Shown in pieces: positions 11,952 through 25,981 of a DNA stretch of 64,000 nucleotides (the stretch's first letter is position 1; each line of letters begins with the position of its first letter). The DNA comes from Minisyncoccia bacterium. Its GTDB lineage: Bacteria; Patescibacteriota; Minisyncoccia; 2-02-FULL-40-12; IGHO2-01-FULL-4-A. The notes beneath the pieces are model-generated. The model was not told the DNA's origin, did no database searches, and saw nothing but the letters and a program-made list of their open reading frames with translations. The stretch covers positions 1,858-65,857 of the forward strand of contig JBEKBN010000005.1 in the NCBI GenBank assembly GCA_050015375.1, given 5' to 3'. The translations under genes and the position numbers were made by a program.

Positions 11952-12563
11952 TTGAAAGCGATTTTAAAAAAAACGCCGCTTTTCGGCTGGTCGTTTTCAA
12001 GCGAGGGGTTCTCATTAGTTGAAATACTCGTTGTCACGACTATTATAGTCATCCTCTCGACGTTGATGGTTTTTAATTTCCGGTCATCGTCCACCAATAC
12101 CACCAGCCGCCATCAGGTGGCTTCGGTCATTGTCGCCGACATCAGAGAACTCCAGGCCCGGGCTTTAGCCGGAATTTCAGCGACCGGGACGATCGTTTGC
12201 GGCTACGGCATTCATTTTGTCAATTCCCAGAGCTATCTGACCTTTACGCGCCAACCGGATCCGGTGTTATGTTCAAAAACCGACGACCGGAAATTTGGCG
12301 CCGGCAACGACCAGGTTCTGGATACCAAGATCGTCGGTAATCCGAATTTTGCCATCCAAACGACCTCCGGTTGGGACAACAGCGACATTTATTTCGAACC
12401 GCCCGACCCGACGACATACATAAACAACGAGAAAACCGTCGCCGGCAATATTGAGCCCTCCGAGACCATATTGATAGTTCGCTCCAACGATCCAAGCGAT
12501 CTGTCTTCGAGCACCATAACCGTTTATGCGTCTGGAAAAATAGACATAACCGATTCGCAATGA
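11952..12563 (+). CDS. Minor pilin / pseudopilin
   Basis: ...SSEG | FSLVEILVVTTIIVIL prepilin N-terminus. The ORF track extends to 11826 through the MITE; TTG 11952 is proposed as the start (uncertain). Confidence 0.6.
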   Translation: MKAILKKTPLFGWSFSSEGFSLVEILVVTTIIVILSTLMVFNFRSSSTNTTSRHQVASVIVADIRELQARALAGISATGTIVCGYGIHFVNSQSYLTFTRQPDPVLCSKTDDRKFGAGNDQVLDTKIVGNPNFAIQTTSGWDNSDIYFEPPDPTTYINNEKTVAGNIEPSETILIVRSNDPSDLSSSTITVYASGKIDITDSQ

Positions 12564-13165
12564 CCCAGATGGAAAGATCAAAAGAAAAGGGGTTCACCCC
12601 GTTAGAGAGTGCAAAATCATTAGGACAATATTTTAGCGTGCGGTTTCGCAATTTCAAAAAGGACTCTCTAACGGGGTTCACCATGGTTGAGATCATCGTC
12701 ACCATTTTTATTTTGGGTTTGGCCCTGGCCGCTATTTATGGAATTTTGTCCGTTGACATGGCCAGCGCCACCGCCTCAAAAAACAATTACACCGCCAGCA
12801 TGCTGGCTCAGGAAGGAGTGGAATTGGTGAGAAATTTCAGGGATAGCGATTGGCTTGCCGGACGGGAATTTGGTTCGCTGGGAGGTTTAGGCGGACCAGT
12901 AGGCGATGGTACCTTTGCCGTTGAGTGGGATGGAACCACGCTTTTGCCGGCGGAGTTTGCCGATGAATATCTGGAGAAAGATTCGAACGGCGTCTTCTCA
13001 TATGATGGTGGCGGTGACACTCTTTTCAAAAGGGCGATTACTATTGATGAAACCACAGATCCGGGAGTTGAGATTATTGTAAGAGTTGATGTCACCTGGA
13101 CCGAAAGGGGACTGGATAAAAAATTATCCGCCGAAGATCATTTATTCAACTGGTACCAAAAATGA
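12560..13165 (+). CDS. Minor pilin with a MITE-encoded 28-aa insertion in the leader peptide
   Basis: MTQMERSKEKGFT[PLESAKSLGQYFSVRFRNFKKDSLTGFT]MVEIIV. The GFT...E cleavage site is regenerated after the insert. Confidence 0.7.
   Translation: MTQMERSKEKGFTPLESAKSLGQYFSVRFRNFKKDSLTGFTMVEIIVTIFILGLALAAIYGILSVDMASATASKNNYTASMLAQEGVELVRNFRDSDWLAGREFGSLGGLGGPVGDGTFAVEWDGTTLLPAEFADEYLEKDSNGVFSYDGGGDTLFKRAITIDETTDPGVEIIVRVDVTWTERGLDKKLSAEDHLFNWYQK
12598..12675. mobile_element. MITE-like element, GAGAG subfamily, 78 bp, TSD GTTCAC, in-frame in CDS
   Basis: cccgttagagagtgc...cactctctaacggg with 6-bp TSD; insert plus TSD is 84 nt (28 codons). Confidence 0.8.
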
Positions 13166-13788
13166 AAAAACCATTTCAAAAGGGCTTTACCCCGTTAGAG
13201 AGTGCAAGCTCAATCAAGAAATTTTTTAACGGACGATTTTGTAATTTTAAAAAGGACTCTCTAACGGGGTTTACATTGATCGAGGCCATAGTTTCCACAC
13301 TTATTTTCTCGATAATCTTGACTATCATCGGCGGCGCTTTCAGTTTGTTCCTGAACTCCCAAAGAAGAGCCATGAACATCCAGCAGGCGATCGAGAACTC
13401 CAACTTTATCTTCGAGTCCATGGCCAAAGAGATCAGGATGAGCACAATCCTCGATGTCGGCAACGACAATTGCCCGGGAACGTATTCGACGACTTTGAAC
13501 ATCGAGCATCCGATCAACGGCTTGGTTACTTACCAATGGGATAACGGCAATCTTTACCGGACCGTGAAAAATCAGACAACCAACGCAACGACCACGACGA
13601 TGCTGAATTCCGATTCGGTTCAATTGACCGGCTTCAAATTTTGCAAAATGGGCGTTGAAGTCGGCGACCAGATCCAGCAGAGGGTAACTATAATTTCGTC
13701 CGTTTCAACCAAGAACTCCAGTGACCAGCAAGCGGTCGTTGATGTTCAAACCACGATTTCCACGAGAAATCTGGAAACAAATCCATGA
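13162..13788 (+). CDS. Minor pilin with a MITE-encoded leader insertion
   Basis: MKKPFQKGFT[PLESASSIKKFFNGRFCNFKKDSLTGFT]LIEAIV. Confidence 0.7.
   Translation: MKKPFQKGFTPLESASSIKKFFNGRFCNFKKDSLTGFTLIEAIVSTLIFSIILTIIGGAFSLFLNSQRRAMNIQQAIENSNFIFESMAKEIRMSTILDVGNDNCPGTYSTTLNIEHPINGLVTYQWDNGNLYRTVKNQTTNATTTTMLNSDSVQLTGFKFCKMGVEVGDQIQQRVTIISSVSTKNSSDQQAVVDVQTTISTRNLETNP
13191..13268. mobile_element. MITE-like element, GAGAG subfamily, 78 bp, TSD (c/g)TTTAC, in-frame in CDS
   Basis: Same termini as 12598..12675; identical 78-bp length. Confidence 0.8.
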
Positions 13789-14132
13789 GCATAAATAACC
13801 CATCCAAAAAAAGATCGGACTCCGGCGTCGCCCTTTTGTTCACGATATTAATGATCGGCATTTTGCTCTCGATCATTTTGGTTTTGTCGAATATTTTTGC
13901 CATCAAGCTCAAACTGTCGGCTGAAACGAGGTACTCGGTCAGCGCCTATTACGCCGCCGAGAGCGGTGTTGAATACTGCCTGTACCTGAGAACATCGCCG
14001 ACTCCGGTTCCGGACCCGCCGGTTCTGGATAACGGCGCGACCTTTGATACCGGCGATACTTGCGCTTCCGGCAACATTAGATCGGTAGGTTCTTTCCGGA
14101 ATGTTTCCCGAGCCATCGAGATCTCATACTAG
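13785..14132 (+). CDS. PilX-N-like pilus-associated protein
   Basis: SDSGVALLFTILMIGILLSIILVL, the PilX N-terminal hydrophobic pattern. Four genes are linked by ATGA overlaps. Confidence 0.45.
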   Translation: MSINNPSKKRSDSGVALLFTILMIGILLSIILVLSNIFAIKLKLSAETRYSVSAYYAAESGVEYCLYLRTSPTPVPDPPVLDNGATFDTGDTCASGNIRSVGSFRNVSRAIEISY

Positions 14133-14972: not shown

Positions 14973-15302
14973 TTGTTTTTGTGCTATAATAGAAATAGAA
15001 ATATGAAAATACCCGATTTCCTAAAAAAATACTTTTGGGATGTTGATTTTAACGGTCTCGATGCCAACACACATTCGCTTTTTATCGTTGAAAGAATATT
15101 AGAATACGGAGACGAAACCGCAACGAGTTGGATGCTGGATAATTTCAGCAAAGAGCAAATAAAGCAAACATTGCTGGAAAGAAAGGGTTTTTCGAAAAAA
15201 AGCGCTAACTATTGGTCTTTGATTTTAAATATACCTAAAGATAAAATTTCATGTTTGAACAGGTCTTACCAGCAGATGCAAAAAAGTCATTGGCCATATT
15301 AG
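14973..15302 (+). CDS. Hypothetical protein, upstream partner of the AbiEii-like gene
   Basis: 109 aa, low GC. Overlaps the next ORF by 52 nt in another frame. Confidence 0.4.
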   Translation: MFLCYNRNRNMKIPDFLKKYFWDVDFNGLDANTHSLFIVERILEYGDETATSWMLDNFSKEQIKQTLLERKGFSKKSANYWSLILNIPKDKISCLNRSYQQMQKSHWPY

Positions 15303-15874
15303 GCAAGAGCGGATTACTGAATGGCGCTTATCTGGCCGGCGGCACAGCTCTAGCCCTACAAATAGGACACAGGATTTCTGTTGATTTTGATTTTTTCACT
15401 CCGGAAGAATTTGACGAAAATATTCTAGTTCAACGGATGCAAAAAACAATTCCTGATTTTAAATTGGATAGGATGGAATGGGGAACCATTTTGGGATATA
15501 TTGGAGAAACCCGTTTCAGTTTGTTTTTTTACAATTATCCTCTTCTTTTCAAAACTCACGATTTCATGGGAGTTAAAATCGCAGACATAAAAGATATCGC
15601 CCCCATGAAAATAGCGGCCATATCGGACAGGGGGACGAAAAGAGATTTTATTGACTTATTTTTTTTAATAGAAGAGGAGAAAACATTGACGCTGGAAGAA
15701 GCGCTTGAGTTATATGATAAAAAATTCGGGTTACTTAAACAAAATAGAATTCATATACTGAAAAGCTTGGTCTATTTTGACGATGCCGAAAAAGGGGGAG
15801 AGCCCAAAATGATAAAAGACATATCTTGGGATAAAATAAAAAAAAGAATCGCAGAATTGGCGTTGGCTCAATAA
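15251..15874 (+). CDS. Nucleotidyltransferase, AbiEii/AbiGii toxin-like family
   Basis: AYLAGGTALALQIGHRISVDFDFFT, the characteristic GG(T/S)AL...D.DF NTase motif of this family. Confidence 0.65.
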   Translation: MFEQVLPADAKKSLAILGKSGLLNGAYLAGGTALALQIGHRISVDFDFFTPEEFDENILVQRMQKTIPDFKLDRMEWGTILGYIGETRFSLFFYNYPLLFKTHDFMGVKIADIKDIAPMKIAAISDRGTKRDFIDLFFLIEEEKTLTLEEALELYDKKFGLLKQNRIHILKSLVYFDDAEKGGEPKMIKDISWDKIKKRIAELALAQ

Positions 15875-15923: not shown

Positions 15924-15944
15924 CGGAAAATAATAAGTTGCTCT

Positions 15945-16003
15945 TCCGAGCCTTGTAGTTGACACTAAACTGTATATAGTTGTAAAATCCAGAAAGTACT
16001 TCC
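15945..16003 (+). promoter_or_regulatory. Promoter of the RiPP precursor gene
   Basis: TTGACA ... tgTAAAAT extended -10-like, then SD ggaggtg 7 nt before the ATG at 16018. Confidence 0.45.
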
Positions 16004-16017
16004 ATGGAGGTGTTTTT

Positions 16018-16194
16018 ATGTCTTTTATGTCTGGTTTTCTGACCTTGGACATTAGAGAGCCAGAGCAGGGCACACTTTCCGGCATCGAAATGCAACCGAC
16101 TTGTGATTGCGATGATATCGCCTGCGATACCAATTGCGATTGCCAAGATTGCGATTACAACTGTGAGGAATGCGACTGCGACAAAAGCGACTGA
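16018..16194 (+). CDS. Candidate RiPP precursor peptide A (58 aa), Cys/Asp-rich core
   Basis: Not in the ORF track because it is under 60 aa. MSFMSGFLTLDIREPEQGTLSGIEMQ-PTCDCDDIACDTNCDCQDCDYNCEECDCDKSD. Good SD, own promoter and terminator. Confidence 0.55.
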   Translation: MSFMSGFLTLDIREPEQGTLSGIEMQPTCDCDDIACDTNCDCQDCDYNCEECDCDKSD

Positions 16195-16224
16195 CAGTTT
16201 GCCCCGTTTGTAGCCAATGTCCCC

Positions 16225-16257
16225 GAGACGCCACTTCTTGGCGCCTCTTCTTTTTTA
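16225..16257. terminator. Bidirectional terminator after precursor A, convergent with the HExxH gene
   Basis: gagacgcc-acttctt-ggcgcctc followed by ttcttttttatt. Confidence 0.6.
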
Positions 16258-17124
16258 TTCAATGACGATGGGTTGTCTAAATTTTTTTAGAAGCTCCTGA
16301 TCTCTTAATGTTTTGTAGCCAAATTTATGCCACATCTCGATTTTTTTGCTTATTTGGTCGCCGATAGAAGCAAATAGTTTTATTAATTTATTAATAATCT
16401 GATTCATATCATTGTTATTATTTTTGTTAAAAATAATATTTTTGTCTACAAAATCAACCAGGGTCATATTATTATCTCCCTCCGATATGTGTATCTCTAC
16501 AATCTCTGGATTGCCTCGGGGAGATTTAGGCATATTAAAAAGGCTTAATAACTCTGGATTTTTAAACATACTTGAGGTGATTGATTCCTGTAAAACATAA
16601 ACCACATCCTTTGAAACATTTTGCCCAATTTTCCAGCCCATTTTCTCGATATATTCTAAAAAAATAATATGAGAAATTTCATGAATTGCAGTCGAAAGAA
16701 CCGACTTGTTTTCTGGATTTTTATTATTTAATTCTGCCAATACAGAATAAAAAAAATAATCTTTCTTGAATGGTGAAAACGGCAGGAGAGACAGATACGC
16801 GTTATATGCTATAGGATCAGACCATGAATAGTTCATAAATCCGCTCAAGAATTTAAAAGCCGCATTATTTTTTTTATTAATTATTTCTTGATTGTACTTG
16901 ATTATCTCTTCTAATTGATTACCCTTGCTTTGATGAAGTGAAACAACAAAATCACGCACTTTTTTTTCCGCATCAGAACTGTTTATTATGTCCGTAAGTT
17001 CCGGGTATGTTTTAAGGATCTTCTCTCGATTTTGAATAAAATATTTATGCCAAATAAAAGAAACGAAGGCGTCAGCATCTTTAATTGGGTCGTTAATAAT
17101 TTTGATTGTTGGGGATACGCCCAT
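16255..17124 (-). CDS. HExxH-motif protein, putative zinc metallopeptidase
   Basis: 289 aa, very low GC. TAIHEISHIIF. Homologous to 20241..20888 (T.IHEI.H.........W). Confidence 0.55.
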   Translation of the reverse strand: MGVSPTIKIINDPIKDADAFVSFIWHKYFIQNREKILKTYPELTDIINSSDAEKKVRDFVVSLHQSKGNQLEEIIKYNQEIINKKNNAAFKFLSGFMNYSWSDPIAYNAYLSLLPFSPFKKDYFFYSVLAELNNKNPENKSVLSTAIHEISHIIFLEYIEKMGWKIGQNVSKDVVYVLQESITSSMFKNPELLSLFNMPKSPRGNPEIVEIHISEGDNNMTLVDFVDKNIIFNKNNNNDMNQIINKLIKLFASIGDQISKKIEMWHKFGYKTLRDQELLKKFRQPIVIE

Positions 17125-17222
17125 TTCTTTAATATTTACAAATCTTTATTATAATTGTATAGTAAATTATAGCATAGCAACTGCACTTTAACAACGAAAT
17201 CCTAGCCAGAAAGAGGTTTTGT

Positions 17223-18563
17223 ATGTACAGGACTTTAAGCGCTCCGCTCATCACACAGGTTGAGTTGACTGAAAAATGTCCCAATAAATGTAGACATTGC
17301 TACAATTATTGGCGGACATTTAATACTGGCAAGTTCAATAATTTTCCAGCCAAAATGGTTGACCAGACGCTGGATAAATTAGCAGAAGCAAAAATATTTC
17401 ACTTAGTCATAACCGGTGGCGAACCACTTGCCAATAAACCAGTTCTTTTTAGTTTCCTCAAAGGCGTGGAAGCCCGAAAATTGACTTGCGGCATCAATTC
17501 GACATTATCAGGACTCACAAAATCAGATGCCGAATATTTTCAGGAAAGTGGCGTTATGAATGTCCTGATTTCGATATTGGGGTCAGACGAGAAAAAACAT
17601 GACGCTATTACCCAAAGCAGGGGTTCTTTTTCCCGCACAATTGATGGGATAAAAATATTGAAAAACACAAACATCCCCATTAGCGCAAATATGGTTGTCT
17701 CCGCCTTGAATATTGACGACATAATCCCGACTTCGATACTTGTTAAATCGCTCGGTTTTAAGAAATTCTTCATTACTAGGGCGGCTTGTCCCAGTAACTG
17801 TATTGATTTCAACGAGCTACGCTTAACAAGAGAACAGTTTACAGGTTACTTAAAAGAACTCCACGCTATTCAAGAACGGATGGGTTTGCGTACGGGTTTT
17901 TTGGAGTGCTACCCGCTTTGTGGCATGAAAGAATTACTACGATACAGTTCTTTTCTGGGTCGCAAATGTTTGGCCGGAATAACTAGCATGACCATAGGTC
18001 CGACCGGAGAAGCCAGACCCTGTTCCCATTTGGATAAGGTTTATGGAAATATATTCAAGGAAAATATCCGTGAAGTTTGGTCCAGAATGACGGAATGGCG
18101 TCATCAATCGTTGCTACCAGACATATGCAAGTCATGCAGAATCGTTAACTATTGTGGTGGCGGGTGCAGGATGGAAGCAAAAACGCTCGGGGGAGGTATA
18201 AATGAAATCGATCCCTTTGCTGAACCGGCAAATGTCGAATATGCGACAGAACAACTTGCCATTTTACACAGAAGAAAACTTGCGAAAAAAGATGAGCTAC
18301 CAAAATTCTGCAGGATAAACCCAAGCTTACGGGTGCGGAATGAATCCTTTGGAGGAGTGTTTTTTGTGGGGGATAAGTCATCTGGTTTAGTGGAATCTCC
18401 AGTGATGGATTTCGTTGGTAGGCTAGATAAAAGGCAAATTTATGAAGTTGATTTTTTGACCGCAGAGATAAATCGTTCTTTATCTTCCGTAAACATCACC
18501 AAGTTTCTCAACCGTATGTTCAAGGAAAAGATTTTCGTTGCTATTTCCGGGGATCATGTTTGA
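17223..18563 (+). CDS. Radical SAM / SPASM-domain peptide-modifying enzyme
   Basis: CPNKCRHCYN (CxxxCxxC) plus C-terminal SPASM cysteines CKSCRIVNYCGGGCR. Confidence 0.85.
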   Translation: MYRTLSAPLITQVELTEKCPNKCRHCYNYWRTFNTGKFNNFPAKMVDQTLDKLAEAKIFHLVITGGEPLANKPVLFSFLKGVEARKLTCGINSTLSGLTKSDAEYFQESGVMNVLISILGSDEKKHDAITQSRGSFSRTIDGIKILKNTNIPISANMVVSALNIDDIIPTSILVKSLGFKKFFITRAACPSNCIDFNELRLTREQFTGYLKELHAIQERMGLRTGFLECYPLCGMKELLRYSSFLGRKCLAGITSMTIGPTGEARPCSHLDKVYGNIFKENIREVWSRMTEWRHQSLLPDICKSCRIVNYCGGGCRMEAKTLGGGINEIDPFAEPANVEYATEQLAILHRRKLAKKDELPKFCRINPSLRVRNESFGGVFFVGDKSSGLVESPVMDFVGRLDKRQIYEVDFLTAEINRSLSSVNITKFLNRMFKEKIFVAISGDHV

Positions 18564-18745
18564 TCCCTTTTTTATTTGATAAATTTAATTATGCACTTAT
18601 CTTTCATATCTTCTTGACTTCTTCATTTAGGAGTAGTATATTGACAGAGTAGTGAAAGTGGGGTTTTTGGTTAGTTACCAGAACCTTAACAACGCAATAT
18701 TTATTTGACATCAGACGGGTTCAAGATTCGTCGGAAGGAGGGGCT

Positions 18746-19636
18746 ATGAAAGGCCTAAGATTATTTTTGATGATTTTGGCGGGGCTGGCGCTTATTACCC
18801 TGTTTCCGCAGGCCGTTTTCGGCCAGAAAGACGGGGATACCCGGCAGATCTATGTGTATCTTCCTACTCAAGTTGTAGGATTAGATGGACCGGCCGGGAA
18901 TCCAAATACTTACGAATATTTAACAGTTATGACATTTACCGTGCGACCCGGTGTTCCTGGTAGTTTTTATGCCTGGCATTTCGATTCGTCCGGGAAGAAA
19001 ATGCAACTGAGGATTTCAGGCGTCAACGGTAGCAGTTTTGAGGCTACTGAGTCGGGGGGCAGTATTGTACCCGGGGGGAGTATTACTCTGACATATTCCT
19101 ATTGCCAAGATAATCAATTTGGCGGATGCCCAAATACTAACATACGTAGCGGCTGGACGCGTTTTCAGGTGGGACAAACTTTTTCAGTGGCGTCTGGGTG
19201 GCAATACGACACCCTGATTTCCGTTGTCTTTCAGCGACGAGACAATCTCGGGTTTCCAAAAATCGTTGCTGATGCTCCCGTTGTTGAGCTTGACACTTCT
19301 TTTATCATTCCGGCATCAGTGACAACCGGCGGAATTGATTCGGGTATTGCCATAGTTAATCCTTCTGACCAACTAGCCAACTTGTCATTCCAGATTTTTA
19401 ATGATGTTGGCCAACTGAAAGGGTCAAAGCAACTGACACTTAATGCCGCCTATCAGTTGAGTGAGTTTGTATCCCAGCTTTTTCCAAATTTACCATTGGA
19501 TGGACTGGGCAATATGCTGACATCCGGCCAGTTAAGGATTTCTTCTGACACACCAATTGCCGTTCTTTCGCTGAAGTCCTACACCGCTCCCGGTTTTTTC
19601 AATATGGGCGGCGGAGCGGCTTTCGTTGTCAAATAA
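18746..19636 (+). CDS. Secreted hypothetical protein
   Basis: Signal peptide MKGLRLFLMILAGLALITLFPQAVFGQ. Confidence 0.5.
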   Translation: MKGLRLFLMILAGLALITLFPQAVFGQKDGDTRQIYVYLPTQVVGLDGPAGNPNTYEYLTVMTFTVRPGVPGSFYAWHFDSSGKKMQLRISGVNGSSFEATESGGSIVPGGSITLTYSYCQDNQFGGCPNTNIRSGWTRFQVGQTFSVASGWQYDTLISVVFQRRDNLGFPKIVADAPVVELDTSFIIPASVTTGGIDSGIAIVNPSDQLANLSFQIFNDVGQLKGSKQLTLNAAYQLSEFVSQLFPNLPLDGLGNMLTSGQLRISSDTPIAVLSLKSYTAPGFFNMGGGAAFVVK

Positions 19637-19643
19637 CCTTTCC

Positions 19644-19693
19644 AATCCCGATTGGTGAGCTCACACCGAACTCTCAGTCGGGGATTTTTTTTG
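19644..19693 (+). terminator. Putative terminator
   Basis: Imperfect hairpin atcccgattg...cagtcggggat plus T8. Confidence 0.45.
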
Positions 19694-19763
19694 GAATTTT
19701 TAACTAAATGAAACATTGACATTCCTATGTTAATGACCTATTATACCAACGACATCATCTAGG

Positions 19764-20111
19764 TTGTTTTTTGACAACCAAAGACAAAAGAAAAGAGGAA
19801 AAATGACTAAGAAATTCCAGCGAACAATAGAAGAATTTACCCGTGGAAAGTGTGTTTTTACTGTGCTTGGAAACGGCTACACTAATCACTGCCCGCAATG
19901 CCTATGGAGTAAGCATGTTGATATAAATCCTAGCGACCGCCAGGCAATATGCCAAGGGTTTATGGAACCCGTGGGCATTGAGCTCAAGAGTGGGGAATAT
20001 ACTATCCTCCATCGCTGTGTTTCGTGCGGTTTTGAGAAACGGAATAAGACGTCAAAAGATGATAATTTTGATGTAATTCTCCGACTCTCGAGTCGTCCAA
20101 CCAAACATTAA
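19764..20111 (+). CDS. RNHCP-domain zinc-ribbon protein
   Basis: NHCPQC...CVSCG. Likely start is ATG 19802 (MTKKFQ). Confidence 0.5.
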   Translation: MFFDNQRQKKRGKMTKKFQRTIEEFTRGKCVFTVLGNGYTNHCPQCLWSKHVDINPSDRQAICQGFMEPVGIELKSGEYTILHRCVSCGFEKRNKTSKDDNFDVILRLSSRPTKH

Positions 20112-20240
20112 TTATAGATTTATCTAATTTTTTAAGATATAATAAAAACGACAAATATCTTCGCCGTCTCGGGGGCAATTTGGAAATATCTTATCGGGAA
20201 ACACCAGTTTCCTTTTTGCCATAAATTCCCTTGATTTTTT

Positions 20241-20888
20241 CTAAGATTTGGAGGTTTTTTTGAGTATTTCCTCTAGATTTGGAAAGTTTGAGTTGAAGAT
20301 CTCGTCAATTTTTTCGATATTAAACCCTTGGGGAAGTTTCTGCATTTTACTTATTTCCGGCATGATTTTCGAGAATATTAGGTCAACAATCCTTTCTTTT
20401 TCCCAGTGACCAATATGATATTTAACTATTAAAGATTCGATATTTAGGTGTAAAATTTCGTGAATAATGGTTCTGCAAATTTCGTTTGGTTGTCTATTAT
20501 TGACATTGATAATTATTGTGCTGGGAGGATCGTAACTCCCGCCGACTCCATATTTTGTAAGAATAATTTTATATAATCCAAATCCTGTCGTTAGACCGTT
20601 TTTTTCTATATTGTTTTCAAGAATATCTGAGATCTTGCCCCATTCTGCATAAATCGAATTAGTCAATTTTTGGTATTCGTTTCGATCAAATTCGTCTTCC
20701 AATTTGTCAGTGATGGTGTCCAAATTAACATCTTCATAACCATCCATGACTATCTCAGAAATTCTGGCAGGTAGACTAATGTTATACCCTCTCTCTCGAT
20801 ACCATTTTAACTTTTTTAATGTATCTAAAACTCTCTCCACTTCAAACTTGAGAGAGAATTTGATTTTGATTTCAATCTGTTTGTTCAT
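20241..20888 (-). CDS. HExxH-motif protein, paralog of 16255..17124
   Basis: TIIHEILHLNIESLIVKYHIGHW; low GC. Confidence 0.55.
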   Translation of the reverse strand: MNKQIEIKIKFSLKFEVERVLDTLKKLKWYRERGYNISLPARISEIVMDGYEDVNLDTITDKLEDEFDRNEYQKLTNSIYAEWGKISDILENNIEKNGLTTGFGLYKIILTKYGVGGSYDPPSTIIINVNNRQPNEICRTIIHEILHLNIESLIVKYHIGHWEKERIVDLIFSKIMPEISKMQKLPQGFNIEKIDEIFNSNFPNLEEILKKTSKS

Positions 20889-20930
20889 AAAAAATTAGGG
20901 GTTAGCATAAGCTATGCTTATACTAACCCC
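20888..20930 (-). terminator. Hairpin terminator/attenuator between precursor B and the HExxH gene
   Basis: ggggttagcataagc / gcttatactaacccc stem with a T-run on the minus strand. Confidence 0.6.
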
Positions 20931-20960
20931 TTTTGGAGAGAACAGCGCAACCGCGTCTGG

Positions 20961-21146
20961 TTAAACGCATTGCCCGGTAGTGCAGTCGCCAGTCACGACA
21001 TCACAACAGTTAATGCCGAACCGGTTTTGCAGGACAGAAGACGGCTGGGTGCTATCTTTCGAATCTTTCTTCAGATGATCCCCGGCCAAATTTACGAAGA
21101 GCAACTTCAATTCCTGCATACCACGATTACCCCTGTTTTTGACCAT
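20961..21146 (-). CDS. Candidate RiPP precursor peptide B (61 aa), Cys-rich C-terminus
   Basis: MVKNRGNRGMQELKLLFVNLAGDHLKKDSKDSTQPSSVLQNRF-GINCCDVVTGDCTTGQCV. SD ggaaggag. Starts 2 nt after the rSAM stop. Confidence 0.5.
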   Translation of the reverse strand: MVKNRGNRGMQELKLLFVNLAGDHLKKDSKDSTQPSSVLQNRFGINCCDVVTGDCTTGQCV

Positions 21147-21148
21147 AA

Positions 21149-22198
21149 CTAAGGATCTCCTTCCTTATTCGAGATCATACCAGAAAAGTCAAAACTATTC
21201 CACCACAGTGGACAACCTCCACGACACCACCACCTATAATCACAATTTGTGCACTTTCGATGACGAAAAACATCAATCGTTCTTCTAAGACGGCTCATTT
21301 CAGAGCCACTCCAAAAATCAATGAATGATTGTGAGCTGGAAATCACAGAATCAATTTCGGATGGACAAACAAGCTCAAATCCCGTCGTGTGAGTGCACAA
21401 AGAAATCGCACGGTTCTCCTTAATTGTTACCGCGTTGCCCGTAAAAACCGGGCAGTTAAACATCAATGACTTTTCCGCCATTATTTCTCTCAATGTCATT
21501 TCCTCTATAAGGCACCACGGTAAGCTAATGACGAAACAGCATTTCTGCTCCAATTTTTTACAAAGTCGAAAAATGTCTGGGATCGCATCAGCAATCAAGA
21601 CCGGATCGGTTTTATATTGCCTGGTATCATCCAAGGAAGGAAGACCGAAAGTGAAGCAAAGCGATTTTGCTTCGAACTTTTTTGCCAAAGCGATGCAATC
21701 TCCAACATTGCCCAGATTTTCCGGACATAGAACGACATTGACCGAAAAACCAATATTTCGATCACGCAGATTTTTCAATCCCTGGCACATTTCATCAAAT
21801 CCTTCCGATGCGCCCGTGTTTGCAAAATAGTGCTCCCGATTGGTTCCGTGCATAGAAACAGAAATACTGAGATGAGGGATGTTTTTTATTACTGACAAGG
21901 GAATGCCATTTGAAAACGATCTCCCGTTGGTAATTAAATTACAGAACTGAAAAAAACTACACAAGTCATCTGCAATTGAAGAAAATTCTGGATGAAGAGT
22001 CGGTTCGCCGCCCGTAATTACGCAGGATTTCGTCCCGCATTCGGACAAGGTTTTTGCAACCCTGACAATAAAATCGCGATTCAAAAAAGTTGCTATTTCC
22101 GACCCCTTACGCAAACACCACAAACAATCGTTGTCGCAAATCCCAGTTAGTGACAACCATACTCGATTTGGTACGACGTTTTGCAACTTTTCAGCCAT
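21149..22198 (-). CDS. Radical SAM / SPASM-domain peptide-modifying enzyme
   Basis: CDNDCLWC (CxxxCxxC) plus SPASM CTNCDYRWWCRGGCP. The ORF track extends to 22285, but ATG 22198 has SD ggagg and is preferred. Confidence 0.85.
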   Translation of the reverse strand: MAEKLQNVVPNRVWLSLTGICDNDCLWCLRKGSEIATFLNRDFIVRVAKTLSECGTKSCVITGGEPTLHPEFSSIADDLCSFFQFCNLITNGRSFSNGIPLSVIKNIPHLSISVSMHGTNREHYFANTGASEGFDEMCQGLKNLRDRNIGFSVNVVLCPENLGNVGDCIALAKKFEAKSLCFTFGLPSLDDTRQYKTDPVLIADAIPDIFRLCKKLEQKCCFVISLPWCLIEEMTLREIMAEKSLMFNCPVFTGNAVTIKENRAISLCTHTTGFELVCPSEIDSVISSSQSFIDFWSGSEMSRLRRTIDVFRHRKCTNCDYRWWCRGGCPLWWNSFDFSGMISNKEGDP

Positions 22199-22441
22199 AA
22201 ATACCTCCGAATAATAGCAAAAATGTTTTTTATTGTGTTGTAAACGAACAATTATAAAGATACTAGAATATTGCATTTTTGTCAAAATATATTAGAATAT
22301 TTAGAATAATAAAAAACATTACCACTTCAACTGCCACTATGGGTTTCCGAAGTTTTTCCATGTATAATTAAGGCAATAAACATCTTCACCGCCTCGGGGA
22401 ATAATTTAGAGAAGCCCTGGTTATTTTCAAAAAGTTGATAA

Positions 22442-25400
22442 ATGATGTTGTTCACAATTTCCGGGATTGGTATAATTGAGACAATGAGAAGCGGGGCAAT
22501 TTCTTATAGAAGACAAGGAGTAGTTTTGATTTCGGTTTTGGTTTTGTCTTTTGTTGTCATCTTTTTATCTTTTTCCGATGCTCAAGCTAGGACCTGCTCG
22601 ATAAATAACGTTCATCCAACCTTTTTATATGGTGACGGCACCCAAACCGCGCCTTTTGCGGCTGACGGTTACCGAGCGAAAATTGGCTCTGTTGATTATT
22701 CGTATCAACCACCGTTGTGTGGAAACTCGGGGATTATTTCGATAACACCTTCGGATCGAACCTATGTCCCGGGTGTCAATATTAATGTTACGCACAGCCT
22801 AAAGGGCTCTGTTGATTCCCCGGATTGGATTTATATCTCGGTTCAAAGAGATGTCCCGCCCGGAAATTATCCCGTCTCATTTGATAGCGTCGTTAATGTT
22901 GGCGGAGGAATGTGTCAGATTGATACATATAACGGTCCGTGCGACGGTTTTGGCTTTACCATAATGGGCAACTCACTTGTCGTAGCAATCAGTCCGGCGG
23001 GAGGCGGGACTGTAACCGGAGGCCACGATATACATTGTCCGAGTAATTGTACAGATGAAGATTCCGAACTTATTAGTGGCTGGGGTAATGGCACCGGCTA
23101 CTCAACTGCCGAAAGTGTTACTTTAACCGCTACCCCTAATACCGGATATGCTTTTGACCATTGGAGCGGAGTTCCTAATACTGGTGATTGTAACGGCTCG
23201 ACAACCACAACATGTAATATGCCCATGTCGATATCAAGAAGTGTAACAGCGGTTTTTCGCGCCACTTCTAATCCGAAACCGAAGGTGGATCTTAGCTCAA
23301 TTATGTCTTATTTCAGTTATCCGACTAAGGATTTAGGAAATAATTCCGTTTCGGTAACAAATGATGGAGATGCTGGAAGCTTGTTAAATTATAGTTATGG
23401 AAAATACGGTCACTTAGCTTCAAGATTTGAATTTAAAGATGCTTCAGATCAAAATAATAATTACAGTTGGCTTGATAAAATTAAAAATATTCTGATTAAT
23501 ATTGCTGACGCCACGGTAAATTTACACGATGGTCTATTAGGTGATGGCGGTGTGCCCCTAGCTAAAGATGTATGGAGAGCCGGGTGGTATGATGGGAGTT
23601 TCAGCGATAACGACATTGCTGGTTTGCATCGCGGAGATAATCCTGTTGCTGTGATTACTGAAACTTGTGAAACTGTGGGTGGCTGCCTTGGTTCCCAAAC
23701 CGCTTCTCACTCGATTATCTACAACATCCCCGATCCATACATTAAGATAAACGGCAAACTTTACGAAACAATTTCGGCAACTTCCGGCCAGCAACTTAAT
23801 ATCGTAATCTCTAGCGGAAACCTTAATACTACGACTCCTACCGTTGTTCCCTCAACAACCGGTTATACCGACCTTTCCGGTATTTGTTATGGCTTGAATG
23901 GCCATTGCATTTTCAACGCTCCCGCCTCTACCACGATTTACGAGATTCGAGTCAAGGGTGTTTCCAATGACGACTACGCAACCGATTCAGGCAATTTCGT
24001 TTCCGCTTTCTTGACTGTGAACATCGGCCAGCCGCCATCTGGCTGTCTCCCCGGCGCGGTTTCACTTTCGGGCTATTCCATTCCCGTTGGTGATTCTGTT
24101 ACTGCTTCAATCCCATCCGGCTGGAGCGGTAGTGGCGCTTTCATTTCTAGTGATGCCACTGTCGCTTCCGTTGGTCCAACAAGCGGCGTAGTTACTGGCA
24201 ACAAAGTCGGTAGCGCCAGTATCAGCGGCACCGGCTGGACCGATCCCAGCGGCAAAACAAATTGTCCTTTGGACAATTCAAATGTCTTATCTATCGGGCC
24301 GCCGCCTTCTAGCCCGCCGCCGCCTTCTGGCGCAGTTTCTGTTTCTCTGACCGCAGACCCCGATACTGTTGACTACGGCCACTCTTCTACTCTGACCTGG
24401 GTTCCGACCAATGCTACCTCTTGCACCTCAACTAATCTGCCAGCCGGCAATTGGTCAACCGGCGACTCCGGGAGCGTTTTCACCGGTTCCCTGACTGGCA
24501 CTACAACTTATTACATAACCTGCACCGGCTCAGATGGCACAGCTAACGCCACCGCCACGGTTGATGTTAGGTTGCCATCAAGCGTCCTAGCCGCCAATCT
24601 TACCATCAAAGACGATGACCAAAACGTCATCAATGTCGCCATTGTTAACAGCTATGTTAATCTCTACGTCGATGCGTCTGCCGACACAGGGCAACATATT
24701 ACTAATGTGAAATTTTGTTCCGATGACACGCCGGGCGACCATTCTTGCGACAGTTCATGGACGAATGTCTATGATTGGACGATCAGTAACAACGGCTTCG
24801 GCATTCCGTGGAACGCTGTCTATAAAAGAATGAAGTGGTCTTTCGCTACACCCGGCATTAAGGGCGTCTATGTTCGAGTTCAGGAGAATGGTGGAACCTG
24901 GTCAAGTATTGCCGAAGCCGACATCACGATTAACGATACTTTTTGGAAACTTCATGTTTATAAAAACGGCTCTGGCGATGGCACTGTCCAGCTCAATTGG
25001 GATGATAGCATATTTGATACCTTAACTTGTGGGTCTGATACATCATGGTCGGACTGTAACGCTGGCACTAGGCAGGTCAATAGATCTAGCGTCTATGTCC
25101 TAGCAGCAGATGTCACAACTCAGCTTCATGCCTCTCCCGCCACCGGCTCTACTTTTGCCGGCTGGTCTGGCAGCGGTTGTTCGGGCACCGGCGGTTGCGC
25201 TGTTACCCCGGCTGGCGATGCCAATGGTTATTTGTATCCCGGCTCGCCGGACAATAGTGTCACTGCCACATTCAATACTCTGGCAACCCCGACTCCTCCT
25301 CCGGGCAACAGCAATCCCAACACTCCTTCAAGTGTCGCCGCGCCGGGCAGTGTTGATTATTGCGCCGGTCTGGCGGCGAGTGTGAACTGGACATATTCTG

Positions 25401-25981
25401 ACACGGACAATAATCCAGTTGGGACTGATCCCCAAAGCGCCTATGATGTAAACATATTAGCTTCTGGTTTTTCTTTCGACACTGGCAAAGTTATGAGTAG
25501 CGGCAACTCATATTCCATTGATCCATCTAAATTAGCCCCGGCAACTACATACAGCGCCAAGGTTAAGGTCTGGGATTCACATAACGCCGCCAGTCCTTGG
25601 TCGTCGGTTGTCTCGTGGACAACGCCGCCCTATCACTATCCGGGTCCGGCTGATTTCACTCCGACGCCGGCAAATATTACCCACGCCAATACCTCGACCC
25701 AGTTCACAGATAAAACAAATTATTATTCCGGCGGCACGCCCTCCCAGCTCTGGACTTTCGCGAATCTTTCCACCGGAGCTCCGGCGACGACTTTCACTTC
25801 CGCTACTCCGACATTCTCATTCCCGACAGCCGGACTTTGGTCCGTGTCGTTAGTTGCCAGTAAAGGGACCTACGCCTGCAGCTCGGGTACTTGCAACGCC
25901 GTTTGCACGCCCAAAGACATCTTTGTCAATGTCGGCAATGTTCCCGTTCCTTCCTGGATAGAAGTTCCGCCTGCGAAGTAG
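22442..25981 (+). CDS. Large secreted/surface protein with Ig-like / InlB-B-repeat-like and Fn3/PKD-like modules
   Basis: 1179 aa, N-terminal TM/signal. C-terminal roughly 230 aa paralogous to 42403..43818. Confidence 0.6.
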   Translation: MMLFTISGIGIIETMRSGAISYRRQGVVLISVLVLSFVVIFLSFSDAQARTCSINNVHPTFLYGDGTQTAPFAADGYRAKIGSVDYSYQPPLCGNSGIISITPSDRTYVPGVNINVTHSLKGSVDSPDWIYISVQRDVPPGNYPVSFDSVVNVGGGMCQIDTYNGPCDGFGFTIMGNSLVVAISPAGGGTVTGGHDIHCPSNCTDEDSELISGWGNGTGYSTAESVTLTATPNTGYAFDHWSGVPNTGDCNGSTTTTCNMPMSISRSVTAVFRATSNPKPKVDLSSIMSYFSYPTKDLGNNSVSVTNDGDAGSLLNYSYGKYGHLASRFEFKDASDQNNNYSWLDKIKNILINIADATVNLHDGLLGDGGVPLAKDVWRAGWYDGSFSDNDIAGLHRGDNPVAVITETCETVGGCLGSQTASHSIIYNIPDPYIKINGKLYETISATSGQQLNIVISSGNLNTTTPTVVPSTTGYTDLSGICYGLNGHCIFNAPASTTIYEIRVKGVSNDDYATDSGNFVSAFLTVNIGQPPSGCLPGAVSLSGYSIPVGDSVTASIPSGWSGSGAFISSDATVASVGPTSGVVTGNKVGSASISGTGWTDPSGKTNCPLDNSNVLSIGPPPSSPPPPSGAVSVSLTADPDTVDYGHSSTLTWVPTNATSCTSTNLPAGNWSTGDSGSVFTGSLTGTTTYYITCTGSDGTANATATVDVRLPSSVLAANLTIKDDDQNVINVAIVNSYVNLYVDASADTGQHITNVKFCSDDTPGDHSCDSSWTNVYDWTISNNGFGIPWNAVYKRMKWSFATPGIKGVYVRVQENGGTWSSIAEADITINDTFWKLHVYKNGSGDGTVQLNWDDSIFDTLTCGSDTSWSDCNAGTRQVNRSSVYVLAADVTTQLHASPATGSTFAGWSGSGCSGTGGCAVTPAGDANGYLYPGSPDNSVTATFNTLATPTPPPGNSNPNTPSSVAAPGSVDYCAGLAASVNWTYSDTDNNPVGTDPQSAYDVNILASGFSFDTGKVMSSGNSYSIDPSKLAPATTYSAKVKVWDSHNAASPWSSVVSWTTPPYHYPGPADFTPTPANITHANTSTQFTDKTNYYSGGTPSQLWTFANLSTGAPATTFTSATPTFSFPTAGLWSVSLVASKGTYACSSGTCNAVCTPKDIFVNVGNVPVPSWIEVPPAK

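What the first reader, a model, noticed from the sequence alone, without database searches (positions are those of the whole stretch)
15931..22300. Duplicated RiPP-like module: Cys/Asp-rich precursor peptide, radical-SAM/SPASM enzyme and HExxH protein, present twice
Two independent copies of the same three-part arrangement lie within 6.4 kb.
(A) Precursor 16018..16194 with its own promoter and terminator, a convergent low-GC HExxH protein 16255..17124, and rSAM-SPASM 17223..18563.
(B) On the minus strand, rSAM-SPASM 21149..22198, then a precursor 20961..21146 two nt after it, then a strong hairpin terminator/attenuator, then the HExxH paralog 20241..20888.

A precursor with a dedicated terminator followed by modification and processing genes is the standard RiPP operon layout. 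rSAM-SPASM enzymes with Cys-rich cores are known for sacti- and ranthipeptides, whose thioether links are Cys-to-Asp or other residues.

Core A (PTCDCDDIACDTNCDCQDCDYNCEECDCDKSD) has 10 Cys interleaved with Asp/Glu and no obvious homolog class that I can name. The HExxH partners are about 30% GC, unlike the host, suggesting horizontal acquisition. A secreted protein (18746..19636) and an RNHCP zinc-ribbon protein lie between the copies. Whether the HExxH proteins are leader peptidases, immunity proteins or a new accessory class is open.
Basis: partly seen in the sequence, partly recalled or inferred. Interest (0 to 1): 0.85.

Follow-up and report, generated by a model that had tools for sequence, protein, structure and literature searches.

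The report
Two radical-SAM peptide-maturation cassettes with zincin partners
This stretch of a tiny-celled (CPR/Minisyncoccia) bacterium carries two neighbouring three-gene sets (an iron-sulfur radical enzyme, a short cysteine-rich peptide and a small zinc-protease-like protein) that belong to two widespread, so far undescribed families of peptide-modifying systems.

Summary
All ORFs, the 2-nt rSAM-B/precursor-B spacing and the 16-bp hairpin exist as described. The core has 9 Cys, not 10. The two modules are not a duplication. The precursors are unrelated, the rSAMs are 19% identical, and the HExxH proteins are only remote superfamily relatives.

Each module is instead a member of its own widespread cassette family.
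- rSAM-A relatives occur in 230 species genomes, mostly Patescibacteria. A Cys-rich small ORF follows them in 56/75 loci, against about 13% at control positions. An HExxH-family gene lies within 1.2 kb in 58/76.
- In the closest rSAM-B relatives, conserved precursors (core [I/F][D/N]CCD[V/I]) and HExxH-B homologs follow the rSAM.

Both rSAMs carry CxxxCxxC plus the SPASM motif but reach no curated family cut-off. The HExxH models most resemble gluzincin catalytic domains, weakly.

The low GC of the HExxH genes is a family-wide trait (65/65 pairs), so it is not evidence of horizontal transfer. The secreted protein and the RNHCP protein are not conserved parts.

Best reading: two RiPP-type cassettes. 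The rSAM cross-links the Cys-rich core (thioether chemistry is inferred) and the zincin removes the leader (inferred). An αKG-HExxH-type oxygenase role is the main rival. I rate it a new variant of a known kind.

The parts
15959..15988 (+). Promoter-like site for precursor A (TTGACA-18-TAAAAT)
   Evidence: 11/12 consensus match. A GGAGG ribosome-binding site lies 7-8 nt before the ATG. This is a consensus match only.
16018..16194 (+). Precursor A, 58 aa: leader with GFLTLD motif, and a C-terminal core with 9 Cys and 12 Asp/Glu ending in NCDCQDCDYNCEECDCDKSD
   Evidence: It is conserved and convergent with HExxH-A homologs in L007 and L009. In relatives it lies after the rSAM-A homolog. The shared clade motif is C[DY]DC[DN][YFV]NCEECD.
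16229..16243 (.). Short GC-rich hairpin between the convergent precA and HExxH-A genes (possible bidirectional terminator)
   Evidence: 5-bp stem; weak. L007 has a GC-rich hairpin at the same place.
16255..17124 (-). HExxH-A, a 289-aa cytoplasmic zincin-like protein (HEISH at 148-152, invariant E180)
17125..17222 (.). Divergent promoter region between HExxH-A and rSAM-A
   Evidence: + strand 17135-17163 (TTTACA-17-TATAGT) and - strand 17194-17166 (TTGTTA-17-TATAAT with TG). These are consensus matches only.
17223..18563 (+). rSAM-A, a 446-aa radical SAM/SPASM enzyme with a roughly 100-aa C-terminal extension (possible leader-binding domain)
   Evidence: Invariant C19/C23/C26 plus 8 further invariant Cys, including CX2CX5CX3C. 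309 homologs at E < 1e-20 and 230 species genomes. A terminator-like hairpin sits at 18549-18568.
20241..20888 (-). HExxH-B, a 215-aa zincin-like protein (HEILH at 143-147, invariant E165 and D169 = ExxxD)
20897..20931 (-). 16-bp hairpin plus T-run between precB and HExxH-B (terminator or attenuator)
   Evidence: L010 has a long hairpin of different sequence plus ATTTTT at the same position.
20961..21146 (-). Precursor B, 61 aa: leader LKLLFVNLAGDHLKK, core GINCCDVVTGDCTTGQCV
   Evidence: Homologs follow rSAM-B relatives in L010 (57% identity), L100, L101/L102 and L105. They share the leader L..FF..LKG.HI.K and the core [IF][DN]CCD[VI].
21149..22198 (-). rSAM-B, a 349-aa radical SAM/SPASM enzyme
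   Evidence: SPASM 30.7 bits against a cut-off of 27. Invariant CxxxCxxC plus 7 Cys, including CX2CX5CX3C. 7,434 representatives at E <= 1e-3, but only 25 at E <= 1e-30. A promoter-like site lies at 22285-22257.

Best explanation
The region holds two adjacent but distinct three-gene RiPP-type maturation cassettes. Each is a member of its own widespread, uncurated family found mainly in Patescibacteria (CPR).

In each cassette a short precursor has two parts: an N-terminal leader carrying a small conserved hydrophobic motif, and a hypervariable Cys-rich, acidic C-terminal core.
- Type A leader motif: GF-x-[ST]-[LI]-[LIF].
- Type B leader motif: L-x-x-F-F-x-x-L-K-G-x-H-I.

Proposed mechanism:
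1. The radical SAM/SPASM enzyme binds the leader.
2. It uses 5'-deoxyadenosyl radical chemistry and its auxiliary Fe-S clusters to cross-link core cysteines. The most likely products are intramolecular thioethers from Cys sulfur to a carbon of Asp/Glu/Asn or another residue, as in ranthi- and sactipeptides.
3. The small cytoplasmic HExxH gluzincin-fold protein then removes the leader.

Dedicated signals raise precursor output relative to the enzymes: a promoter for precA, and a hairpin terminator/attenuator after precB.

Shown here:
- The genes exist, and the precursors are conserved.
- rSAM, peptide and HExxH genes are tightly linked across many genomes.
- The CxxxCxxC and SPASM motifs are present.
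- The HExxH proteins have a zincin-like fold with a conserved downstream Glu.

Inferred:
- That the rSAM acts on the peptide.
- The thioether chemistry.
- The proteolytic role of the HExxH protein.
- The biological role of the product.
For: rSAM enzymes:
- Both pass Radical_SAM and the SPASM domain model.
- Their families keep CxxxCxxC and CX2CX5CX3C invariant.

Type A cassette:
- 56/75 related loci have a Cys-rich ORF of 95 aa or less right after the rSAM, against 12.5-14% at controls.
- All 16 loci of the closest clade have an HExxH partner, and 15 of them show a precursor ending in a motif like ...C.DC..NCEECD. Fourteen partners are HA by ORF-HMM, L023 by tblastn only, and L024 carries HB instead.
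- 58/76 loci carry an HExxH-family gene within 1.2 kb, typically 200-300 bp from the rSAM stop with the peptide gene in the gap.

Type B cassette:
- L010 and L098-L106 conserve rSAM-B, then precB, then HExxH-B.
- In the wider family, 45/56 loci have an HExxH gene and/or a Cys-rich ORF next to the rSAM.

HExxH proteins:
- The AF2 models are confident (pLDDT 94 and 90) and share the same order of secondary-structure elements.
- A Glu one helix after HExxH is invariant: E180 in HA, and E165-x3-D169 (thermolysin-type) in HB.
- The third partner family (HC) has HExxH...EGxAxF and hits Peptidase_MA_2 at E = 2e-5.

Precedents and signals:
- Cys-Asp/Glu thioethers made by a SPASM rSAM at CX3D/E motifs are known for PapB (PMC9413430). 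Core A has 5 CX3[DE] motifs.
- M1-type zinc peptidases are known RiPP leader peptidases (PMC10885120).
- The hairpin after precB is conserved in position in L010.
Against: - No curated maturase family is reached: PapB 66.6 bits against 340, AlbA 55.8 against 850, SkfB 41.6 against 300.
- rSAM-A's best partial matches are AhbD, NirJ2 and PqqE, which are cofactor enzymes.
- No RRE/PqqD domain is detectable by sequence in either rSAM.
- No transporter or immunity gene is conserved in the neighbourhoods.
- HExxH-B family members also occur away from any rSAM (L012-L017).
- There is no experimental or expression evidence.
Confidence: 0.55

Rival explanations
1. The HExxH proteins are not peptidases. 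They are non-hydrolytic tailoring metalloenzymes of the zincin fold, for example Fe(II)/alpha-ketoglutarate-dependent HExxH oxygenases. These would hydroxylate Asp or other residues, or oxidatively cleave the precursor after the rSAM step.
For: - alphaKG-HExxH enzymes were long mis-annotated as metalloproteases. They occur fused or adjacent to rSAM RiPP maturases and hydroxylate Asp, His, Gln and Pro (PMC12636437, PMC13060819, citing Morishita et al. 2024).
- The cores are very Asp-rich.
Against: - No hit to any NCBIfam model at E <= 0.1. By my recollection that library includes the alphaKG-HExxH model TIGR04267/IPR026337.
- The proteins are 215-289 aa, against 342 aa for the ChlH domain.
- A thermolysin-type ExxxD motif is invariant in the HB family.
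- By general knowledge, the hosts are mostly anaerobic fermenters lacking a TCA cycle, which sits poorly with O2/alphaKG chemistry.
Confidence: 0.15
2. The modified peptides are not secreted bioactive RiPPs. They are intracellular metal-binding or redox-cofactor-like molecules, in the manner of PQQ, mycofactocin or bufferins. The rSAM would build a chelating or redox-active scaffold from the Cys/Asp core.
For: - rSAM-A's best partial family matches are AhbD, NirJ2, PqqE and the mycofactocin maturase, and PqqE is its best PDB match.
- No exporter, immunity gene or C39 peptidase is conserved near the cassettes.
- The cores resemble metallothionein-like Cys/Asp ligand arrays.
- All parts look cytoplasmic: by eye, the HExxH proteins have no signal peptide.
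Against: - Core sequences vary greatly between lineages, unlike cofactor precursors such as PqqA or MftA.
- Several genomes carry multiple different cassettes side by side (window, L024, L028, L029, L038). That is more typical of diversifying peptide natural products.
Confidence: 0.15
3. For module B, the adjacency of the HExxH gene is incidental. HExxH-B would be a general housekeeping zincin of CPR bacteria that merely sits downstream of an rSAM-precursor pair and is insulated from it by a terminator.
For: - HExxH-B homologs at 40-43% identity (P0032, P0023) sit in neighbourhoods with no rSAM. These contain SpoU methylase, ASCH and AAA_18, or arrays of other HExxH proteins.
- A strong terminator-like hairpin separates precB from HExxH-B.
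Against: - All 7 close rSAM-B relatives with enough downstream sequence are followed by an HB gene, as is L010.
- HB-type genes also pair with rSAM-A-type cassettes. In L024 one is convergent with the precursor.
- HExxH genes of three families lie within 700 bp in 33/56 B-type loci.
Confidence: 0.07
4. One reading: a recent duplication of one RiPP module, whose HExxH genes were acquired horizontally as shown by their low GC.
For: The same three-part architecture occurs twice within 6.4 kb. HExxH-A and -B have 31-33% GC, against 46% for the whole window.
Against: - The precursors are unrelated, the rSAMs are 19% identical, and the HExxH proteins give BLASTP E = 4.8.
- Each module's closest relatives lie in other genomes, not in its neighbour.
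- HExxH genes are lower in GC than the adjacent rSAM in 65/65 pairs elsewhere, with a mean difference of 0.10.
Confidence: 0.03

Closest known systems
Ranthipeptides (PapB/freyrasin; SCIFF/CteB thermocellin)
   Same: A SPASM-type radical SAM maturase is encoded next to a short precursor of about 45-60 aa with a Cys-rich C-terminal core. PapB links Cys sulfur to Asp/Glu carbons at CX3D/E motifs (PMC9413430), and core A has five such motifs. By my recollection, SCIFF-type systems are also minimal, widely distributed cassettes without a dedicated exporter.
   Different: The PapB model scores 66.6 bits against a cut-off of 340. No N-terminal RRE is detectable. The core motifs (C.DC..NCEECD and [ID]CCDV) and the leader motifs differ. 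A small HExxH zincin is a near-constant third gene. The chemistry is untested.
Sactipeptides (AlbA/subtilosin, SkfB, StsB)
   Same: An rSAM/SPASM (or twitch) enzyme makes Cys thioethers in a leader-dependent manner. SkfB is the best solved-structure match of rSAM-B (E = 3e-9) and the second-best of rSAM-A.
   Different: AlbA scores 55.8 bits against 850, StsB 55.3 against 625 and SkfB 41.6 against 300. By my recollection, sactipeptide clusters use M16-type or other proteases plus ABC exporters. Neither is conserved here.
alphaKG-HExxH peptide hydroxylases (ChlH domain of ChlB, BpmH, PflC/PosC, PesO)
   Different: There is no sequence match to that family. The proteins here are smaller. Peptidase domains rank higher for HA. 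The ExxxD/gluzincin third-ligand pattern is conserved.
M1-family RiPP leader peptidases (AplP-like, class III/IV lanthipeptides)
   Same: These are gluzincin HExxH...E zinc peptidases that remove RiPP leaders (PMC10885120). M1 catalytic domains are the top or near-top structural matches of both models.
   Different: AplP-like enzymes are large multi-domain M1 aminopeptidases, often encoded outside the cluster. The proteins here are 215-289-aa stand-alone minimal domains with no Pfam or NCBIfam membership.
Haft-type uncharacterised rSAM/SPASM peptide systems (ACGX-repeat, GeoRSP, SynChlorMet cassettes)
   Same: These are bioinformatically defined cassettes of an rSAM/SPASM enzyme with a Cys-containing repeat peptide. 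They are among the partial matches of rSAM-A.
   Different: All score 75-93 bits against cut-offs of 400. The precursor families differ.

Membership tests
Radical SAM superfamily | CxxxCxxC cluster motif and a PF04055 match above the gathering score | tested here: met
   rSAM-A 67.4 bits and rSAM-B 55.7 bits, against 29.5. C19/C23/C26 and C21/C25/C28 are invariant in the family alignments.
SPASM-domain rSAM enzymes | C-terminal auxiliary-cluster domain: TIGR04085 at or above 27 bits, and the CX2CX5CX3C motif | tested here: met
   46.8 bits (A) and 30.7 bits (B). C302-x2-C305-x5-C311-x3-C315 (A) and C316-x2-C319-x5-C325-x3-C329 (B) are invariant.
Ranthipeptide maturases (PapB family, NF047865) | Score at or above the curated equivalog cut-off (340 bits) | tested here: not met
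   rSAM-A scores 66.6 bits. rSAM-B is not among its top 25 hits.
Ranthipeptide / sactipeptide (product class) | Cys S-to-carbon thioether cross-links in the mature peptide | not testable with these tools
   This needs MS/NMR of the co-expressed precursor and rSAM.
Sactipeptide maturases (AlbA NF012164, StsB NF045574, SkfB TIGR04403) | Score at or above the curated cut-offs (850, 625 and 300 bits) | tested here: not met
   Scores are 55.8, 55.3 and 41.6 bits.
Cofactor rSAM enzymes (PqqE, AhbD, NirJ, MftC, MoaA) and anSME | Score at or above the curated equivalog cut-offs | tested here: not met
   The best matches are AhbD at 103 bits against 500, PqqE at 94 against 381, and MoaA (archaeal) at 55 against 325.
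RRE (PqqD-like) leader-recognition domain | A PF05402 match, or profile similarity to a PqqD domain | tested here: inconclusive
   There is no Pfam hit for the whole proteins or for nine C-terminal extensions at E <= 10. hhalign against the PqqD-like N-terminus of the L001 rSAM gives E = 0.038 and probability 1%.
Gluzincin (clan MA(E)) metallopeptidases | HExxH on a helix, a Glu third ligand on the following helix, and the zincin fold | tested here: met
Pfam Peptidase_MA_2 (PF13485) / SprT-like (PF10263) | Score at or above the gathering threshold | tested here: not met
   Only sub-threshold hits: SprT-like in 13/48 HB members (best E = 0.012) and Peptidase_MA_2 in 5/48. An HC-type partner scores 24.9 bits against 32.4.
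alphaKG-HExxH beta-hydroxylases (IPR026337 / TIGR04267) | Sequence membership in the family model | tested here: not met
alphaKG-HExxH beta-hydroxylases | Fe(II)/alphaKG-dependent hydroxylation activity | not testable with these tools
   This needs an enzyme assay.

The most novel reading that the evidence does not exclude
The rSAM/SPASM, Cys-rich acidic peptide and minimal HExxH zincin trio is a distinct, previously unrecognised RiPP class. It is centred on ultra-small episymbiotic or predatory lineages (CPR, DPANN, Bdellovibrionota, Omnitrophota). In this reading the zincin-fold partner is an obligatory new kind of peptide-processing or tailoring enzyme. The densely cross-linked Cys/Asp product would be a metal-binding or host-directed effector. 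This would be one of the few dedicated secondary-metabolite systems of CPR bacteria.
Probability: 0.2. Interest if true: 0.85.

Novelty: new variant of a known kind. Interest (0 to 1): 0.62.

Why it matters
CPR/Patescibacteria are usually reported to have almost no biosynthetic gene clusters. One long-read MAG study found none in its Patescibacteria MAGs (PMC11613949).

Here a compact three-gene peptide-maturation cassette turns out to be common. Relatives of rSAM-A occur in 230 species-level genomes, and several genomes carry two or more cassettes side by side. No Pfam or NCBIfam family covers the maturases at equivalog level, the precursors or the HExxH partners.

The constant pairing of a SPASM rSAM with a minimal zincin-fold protein raises a concrete, testable question. 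Is this a new small leader peptidase, or another non-proteolytic HExxH enzyme like the recently discovered alphaKG-HExxH hydroxylases?

The Cys/Asp-dense cores could yield very heavily cross-linked or metal-chelating peptides. The systems are small enough (about 2.5 kb) for direct heterologous reconstitution.

Tried and rejected
- **Direct paralogy of the two modules.** BLASTP of the HExxH, rSAM and precursor pairs gave no meaningful similarity. hhalign of the narrow HExxH-A and HExxH-B profiles gave only 28% probability. A broader HA-like profile reached 95% against HB, so they are remote homologs, not duplicates.
- **RRE/PqqD domain in the rSAM-A C-terminal extension.** Pfam gave no hit at E <= 10 on nine sequences. 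hhalign against a PqqD-like N-terminus was not significant.
- **Sequence search of the HExxH profiles against PDB.** Nothing relevant was found.
- **Foldseek of the HB model against PDB.** No significant hit (best E = 0.57), although M1 aminopeptidases fill the top ranks.
- **afdb50 fold library.** It was unavailable.
- **First metagenome scan with the single rSAM-B protein.** It found no relative. The repeat with an alignment worked.
- **Secreted protein 18746-19636 and the RNHCP protein as cassette parts.** There were no tblastn hits in the 97 loci held at that point, L001-L097, so both were rejected.
- **L001-L005 (HExxH-A homologs at 30% identity).** Their neighbour is a different, PqqD-fused rSAM plus a transglutaminase-like gene. 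No convincing Cys/Asp precursor was found there.
- **Literature searches.** Searches for CPR/Patescibacteria/Parcubacteria combined with radical SAM, RiPP or ranthipeptide found no description of this cassette.
- **Rfam scan of the window.** It returned only tRNAs.

Full report
**Source and observation**

The window comes from a Minisyncoccia (CPR/Patescibacteria) MAG. The exact HExxH-A and HExxH-B proteins are deposited as hypothetical proteins of 'Minisyncoccia bacterium'.

- precA (16018-16194, +) has a GGAGG ribosome-binding site. An 11/12 sigma-70-like promoter match lies at 15959-15988.
- precA is convergent with HExxH-A (16255-17124, -).
- HExxH-A is divergent from rSAM-A (17223-18563, +).
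- On the minus strand, rSAM-B (21149-22198) is followed after 2 nt by precB (20961-21146).
- A 16-bp hairpin with a T-run follows at 20931-20897, and then HExxH-B (20241-20888).
- Core A has 9 cysteines and 12 acidic residues, not 10 cysteines.

**The two modules are analogous, not duplicated**

- BLASTP finds nothing between the two HExxH proteins beyond the motif (E = 4.8).
- The rSAMs are 19% identical (E = 2e-5).
- The precursors are unrelated.
- Each gene's closest relatives lie in other genomes.
- At profile level the narrow HExxH-A family aligns to HExxH-B with only 28% probability. A broader HA-like profile, built from neighbours of rSAM-A homologs, reaches 95% probability (E = 2e-8) over 151 columns.
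- The two AlphaFold models (pLDDT 90 and 94) share the same order of secondary-structure elements up to the helix after HExxH.

The HExxH proteins therefore belong to one remote superfamily, but they are not recent paralogs.

**Enzymes**

- Both rSAMs pass Pfam Radical_SAM and the NCBIfam SPASM domain model.
- Their family alignments keep CxxxCxxC and the CX2CX5CX3C SPASM motif invariant.
- Neither approaches the curated cut-off of any named family. This holds for peptide maturases (PapB, AlbA, SkfB, StsB, ScmE, ACGX, GeoRSP) and for cofactor enzymes (PqqE, AhbD, NirJ, MftC, MoaA).
- rSAM-A carries a conserved C-terminal extension of about 100 aa, with R-x-R-x-E-x-F-G invariant. I suspect it is a leader-binding domain, but Pfam PqqD does not detect it and hhalign is not significant.

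**Module A is one member of a large cassette family**

- HExxH-A has only four word-indexed homolog clusters. In two of them, on short contigs (L007, L009), a convergent small ORF encodes a clear precA homolog ending in ...NCDC.DCDYNCQECDNT[ED].
- rSAM-A has 309 homologs at E < 1e-20.
- Relatives occur in 230 species-representative genomes. Most are Patescibacteria, with some DPANN archaea, Bdellovibrionota, Omnitrophota and Desulfobacterota.
- In the 76 analysable loci, 58 have a Cys-rich ORF of 38-90 aa starting next to the rSAM stop.
- On the control test this is 56/75, against 14% at random positions and 12.5% after other genes.
- Leaders share a short motif such as GFETIL, GFVSLV, GIVSLL or ILSIV. 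Cores are hypervariable but always Cys-rich and mostly acidic.
- Clustering all neighbouring ORFs gives only three recurrent families besides the rSAM, and all three are HExxH proteins:
  - HA-like (28 loci)
  - HB (6 loci)
  - an HC family (31 loci) with HExxH...EGxAxF, which hits Peptidase_MA_2 below threshold
- In 58/76 loci such a gene lies within 1.2 kb. It is usually 200-300 bp past the rSAM stop, with the peptide gene in the gap.
- All 16 loci of the closest clade have an HExxH partner.
- The usual order is rSAM, precursor, then a convergent HExxH gene. The window, L018 and L035 show a cyclic permutation: precursor, convergent HExxH, then rSAM. This explains why precA needs its own promoter.

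**Module B likewise**

- The exhaustive search finds 7,434 relatives of rSAM-B, but only 25 at E <= 1e-30.
- The close relatives are L010 (69% identity) and L098-L106 (41-49% identity). All seven of L098-L106 with enough downstream sequence, and L010, are followed by an HB gene.
- L010, L100, L101/L102 and L105 show precB homologs with a conserved leader (L..FF..LKG.HI.K) and core ([IF][DN]CCD[VI]).
- L010 also has a long hairpin of different sequence plus a T-run at the position of the window's hairpin.
- In the wider family, 33 of 56 loci have an HExxH gene (HB or HA-like) within 700 bp. 22 have a Cys-rich small ORF, and 45 have one or both.
- HB-type genes can also serve type-A cassettes. 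In L024 one is convergent with the peptide gene.
- Type A and type B cassettes sit side by side again in L024, L028, L029 and L038. The pairing seen in the window therefore recurs, but it is not obligatory.
- HB homologs also occur with no rSAM nearby (L012-L017).

**What the HExxH proteins are**

- There are no Pfam or NCBIfam families above threshold.
- Foldseek finds no significant match, but M1 aminopeptidases fill its top ranks.
- A Glu on the next helix is invariant: E180 in HA, and E165 with D169 in HB, which is the thermolysin-type ExxxD pattern.
- This fits a minimal gluzincin peptidase. M1-type zinc peptidases are established RiPP leader peptidases (PMC10885120).
- The serious rival comes from recent work. 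HExxH proteins fused or adjacent to rSAM RiPP maturases can be Fe/alphaKG-dependent hydroxylases of Asp, His, Gln and Pro, or oxidative cleavers (PMC12636437, PMC13060819).
- I favour the peptidase role at about 0.5, against about 0.15 for a non-hydrolytic enzyme.

- The low GC of the HExxH genes is not evidence for horizontal transfer. In 65 of 65 rSAM/HExxH pairs from other genomes the HExxH gene is lower in GC (mean 0.32 against 0.42).
- The secreted protein (18746-19636) and the RNHCP protein (19764-20111) have no homolog in any related locus. They are not parts of the system.

**Mechanism, with what is shown and what is inferred**

Shown:
- two conserved three-gene cassettes
- SPASM rSAMs
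- conserved leader motifs with hypervariable Cys-rich cores
- zincin-fold partners
- signals consistent with excess precursor expression

Inferred:
- The rSAM binds the leader and cross-links core Cys residues. Thioethers to Asp/Glu/Asn carbons are the most likely chemistry. This is by analogy with PapB CX3D/E chemistry (PMC9413430), and core A has five CX3[DE] motifs.
- The HExxH protein then removes the leader.

The biological role is unknown. The cassettes may make diversifying secreted effectors or intracellular metal-binding peptides. No exporter or immunity gene is conserved.

**Novelty**

The kind of system is known: an rSAM/SPASM RiPP with a Cys-rich precursor. However, these two maturase families, their precursor families and the near-constant minimal zincin partner are not covered by Pfam or NCBIfam. 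I also could not find them in the literature held here. I rate this a new variant of a known kind, with moderate to high interest. CPR bacteria are generally reported as nearly devoid of biosynthetic clusters (for example PMC11613949), and the cassette is small and directly testable.

Noticed in passing
L018-L097 and window 16255-17124 / 20241-20888: HExxH partner genes are lower in GC than the adjacent rSAM gene in 65 of 65 pairs (mean 0.32 against 0.42). This is a family-wide compositional trait with no explanation yet.
   Followed up: partly
window 14973-15874: A DUF6922 plus AbiEii (type IV toxin-antitoxin nucleotidyltransferase) gene pair lies directly upstream of precA in the same low-GC stretch. 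AbiEii-like ORFs recur near rSAM-A homologs in three other loci, including L050 and L069.
   Followed up: partly
window 12560-14132: There are three consecutive small genes. Two show prepilin-type N-terminal methylation motifs (PF07963, just below threshold). This is probably a pseudopilin/type IV pilin operon.
   Followed up: partly
window 22442-25981: A 1179-aa protein with an N-terminal hydrophobic segment, an InlB B-repeat-like domain and an Ig-like domain lies divergent from rSAM-B. It is probably a surface protein.
   Followed up: partly
L010 835-1060 and 2069-2503: The rSAM-B homolog has an apparent frameshift before its last SPASM cysteines, on a contig of 2.8x coverage. A further HExxH gene (HELTH...AEGVSTF, HC-like) follows HExxH-B.
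   Followed up: no
L041, L045, L048, L054, L069: In these rSAM-A relatives the HC-type HExxH gene overlaps the rSAM stop. In at least L054, a Cys/Pro-rich peptide with an FVSIL-type leader follows the HExxH gene instead of preceding it (cluster 6).
   Followed up: no
L028 1907-7386; L055; L059: Some loci stack several HExxH genes and two rSAMs. L028 has two rSAMs and three HExxH genes but only one obvious precursor. L055 has three HC genes and L059 has two.
   Followed up: no
P0249, P0256, P0265, P0310: Relatives of rSAM-B include proteins of 600-1300 aa with two to four matched stretches. These appear to be tandem fusions of rSAM domains.
   Followed up: no
L001-L005: The HExxH-A homologs at 30% identity sit between a 361-aa secreted protein and a transglutaminase-core protein. 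A PqqD-fused rSAM/SPASM (26% identical to rSAM-A) lies about 1.2 kb away, and a C39-like peptidase lies further on in L001. No Cys/Asp precursor was recognised.
   Followed up: partly
L060, L063 (archaeal MAGs); L056, L061, L080, L088 (Bdellovibrionota/Bdellovibrionales MAGs); L058 (Omnitrophica): The type-A cassette, with Cys/Asp-rich peptides, also occurs in DPANN archaea and in predatory or ultra-small bacterial lineages. This suggests exchange between, or a shared niche of, small-celled episymbionts.
   Followed up: no
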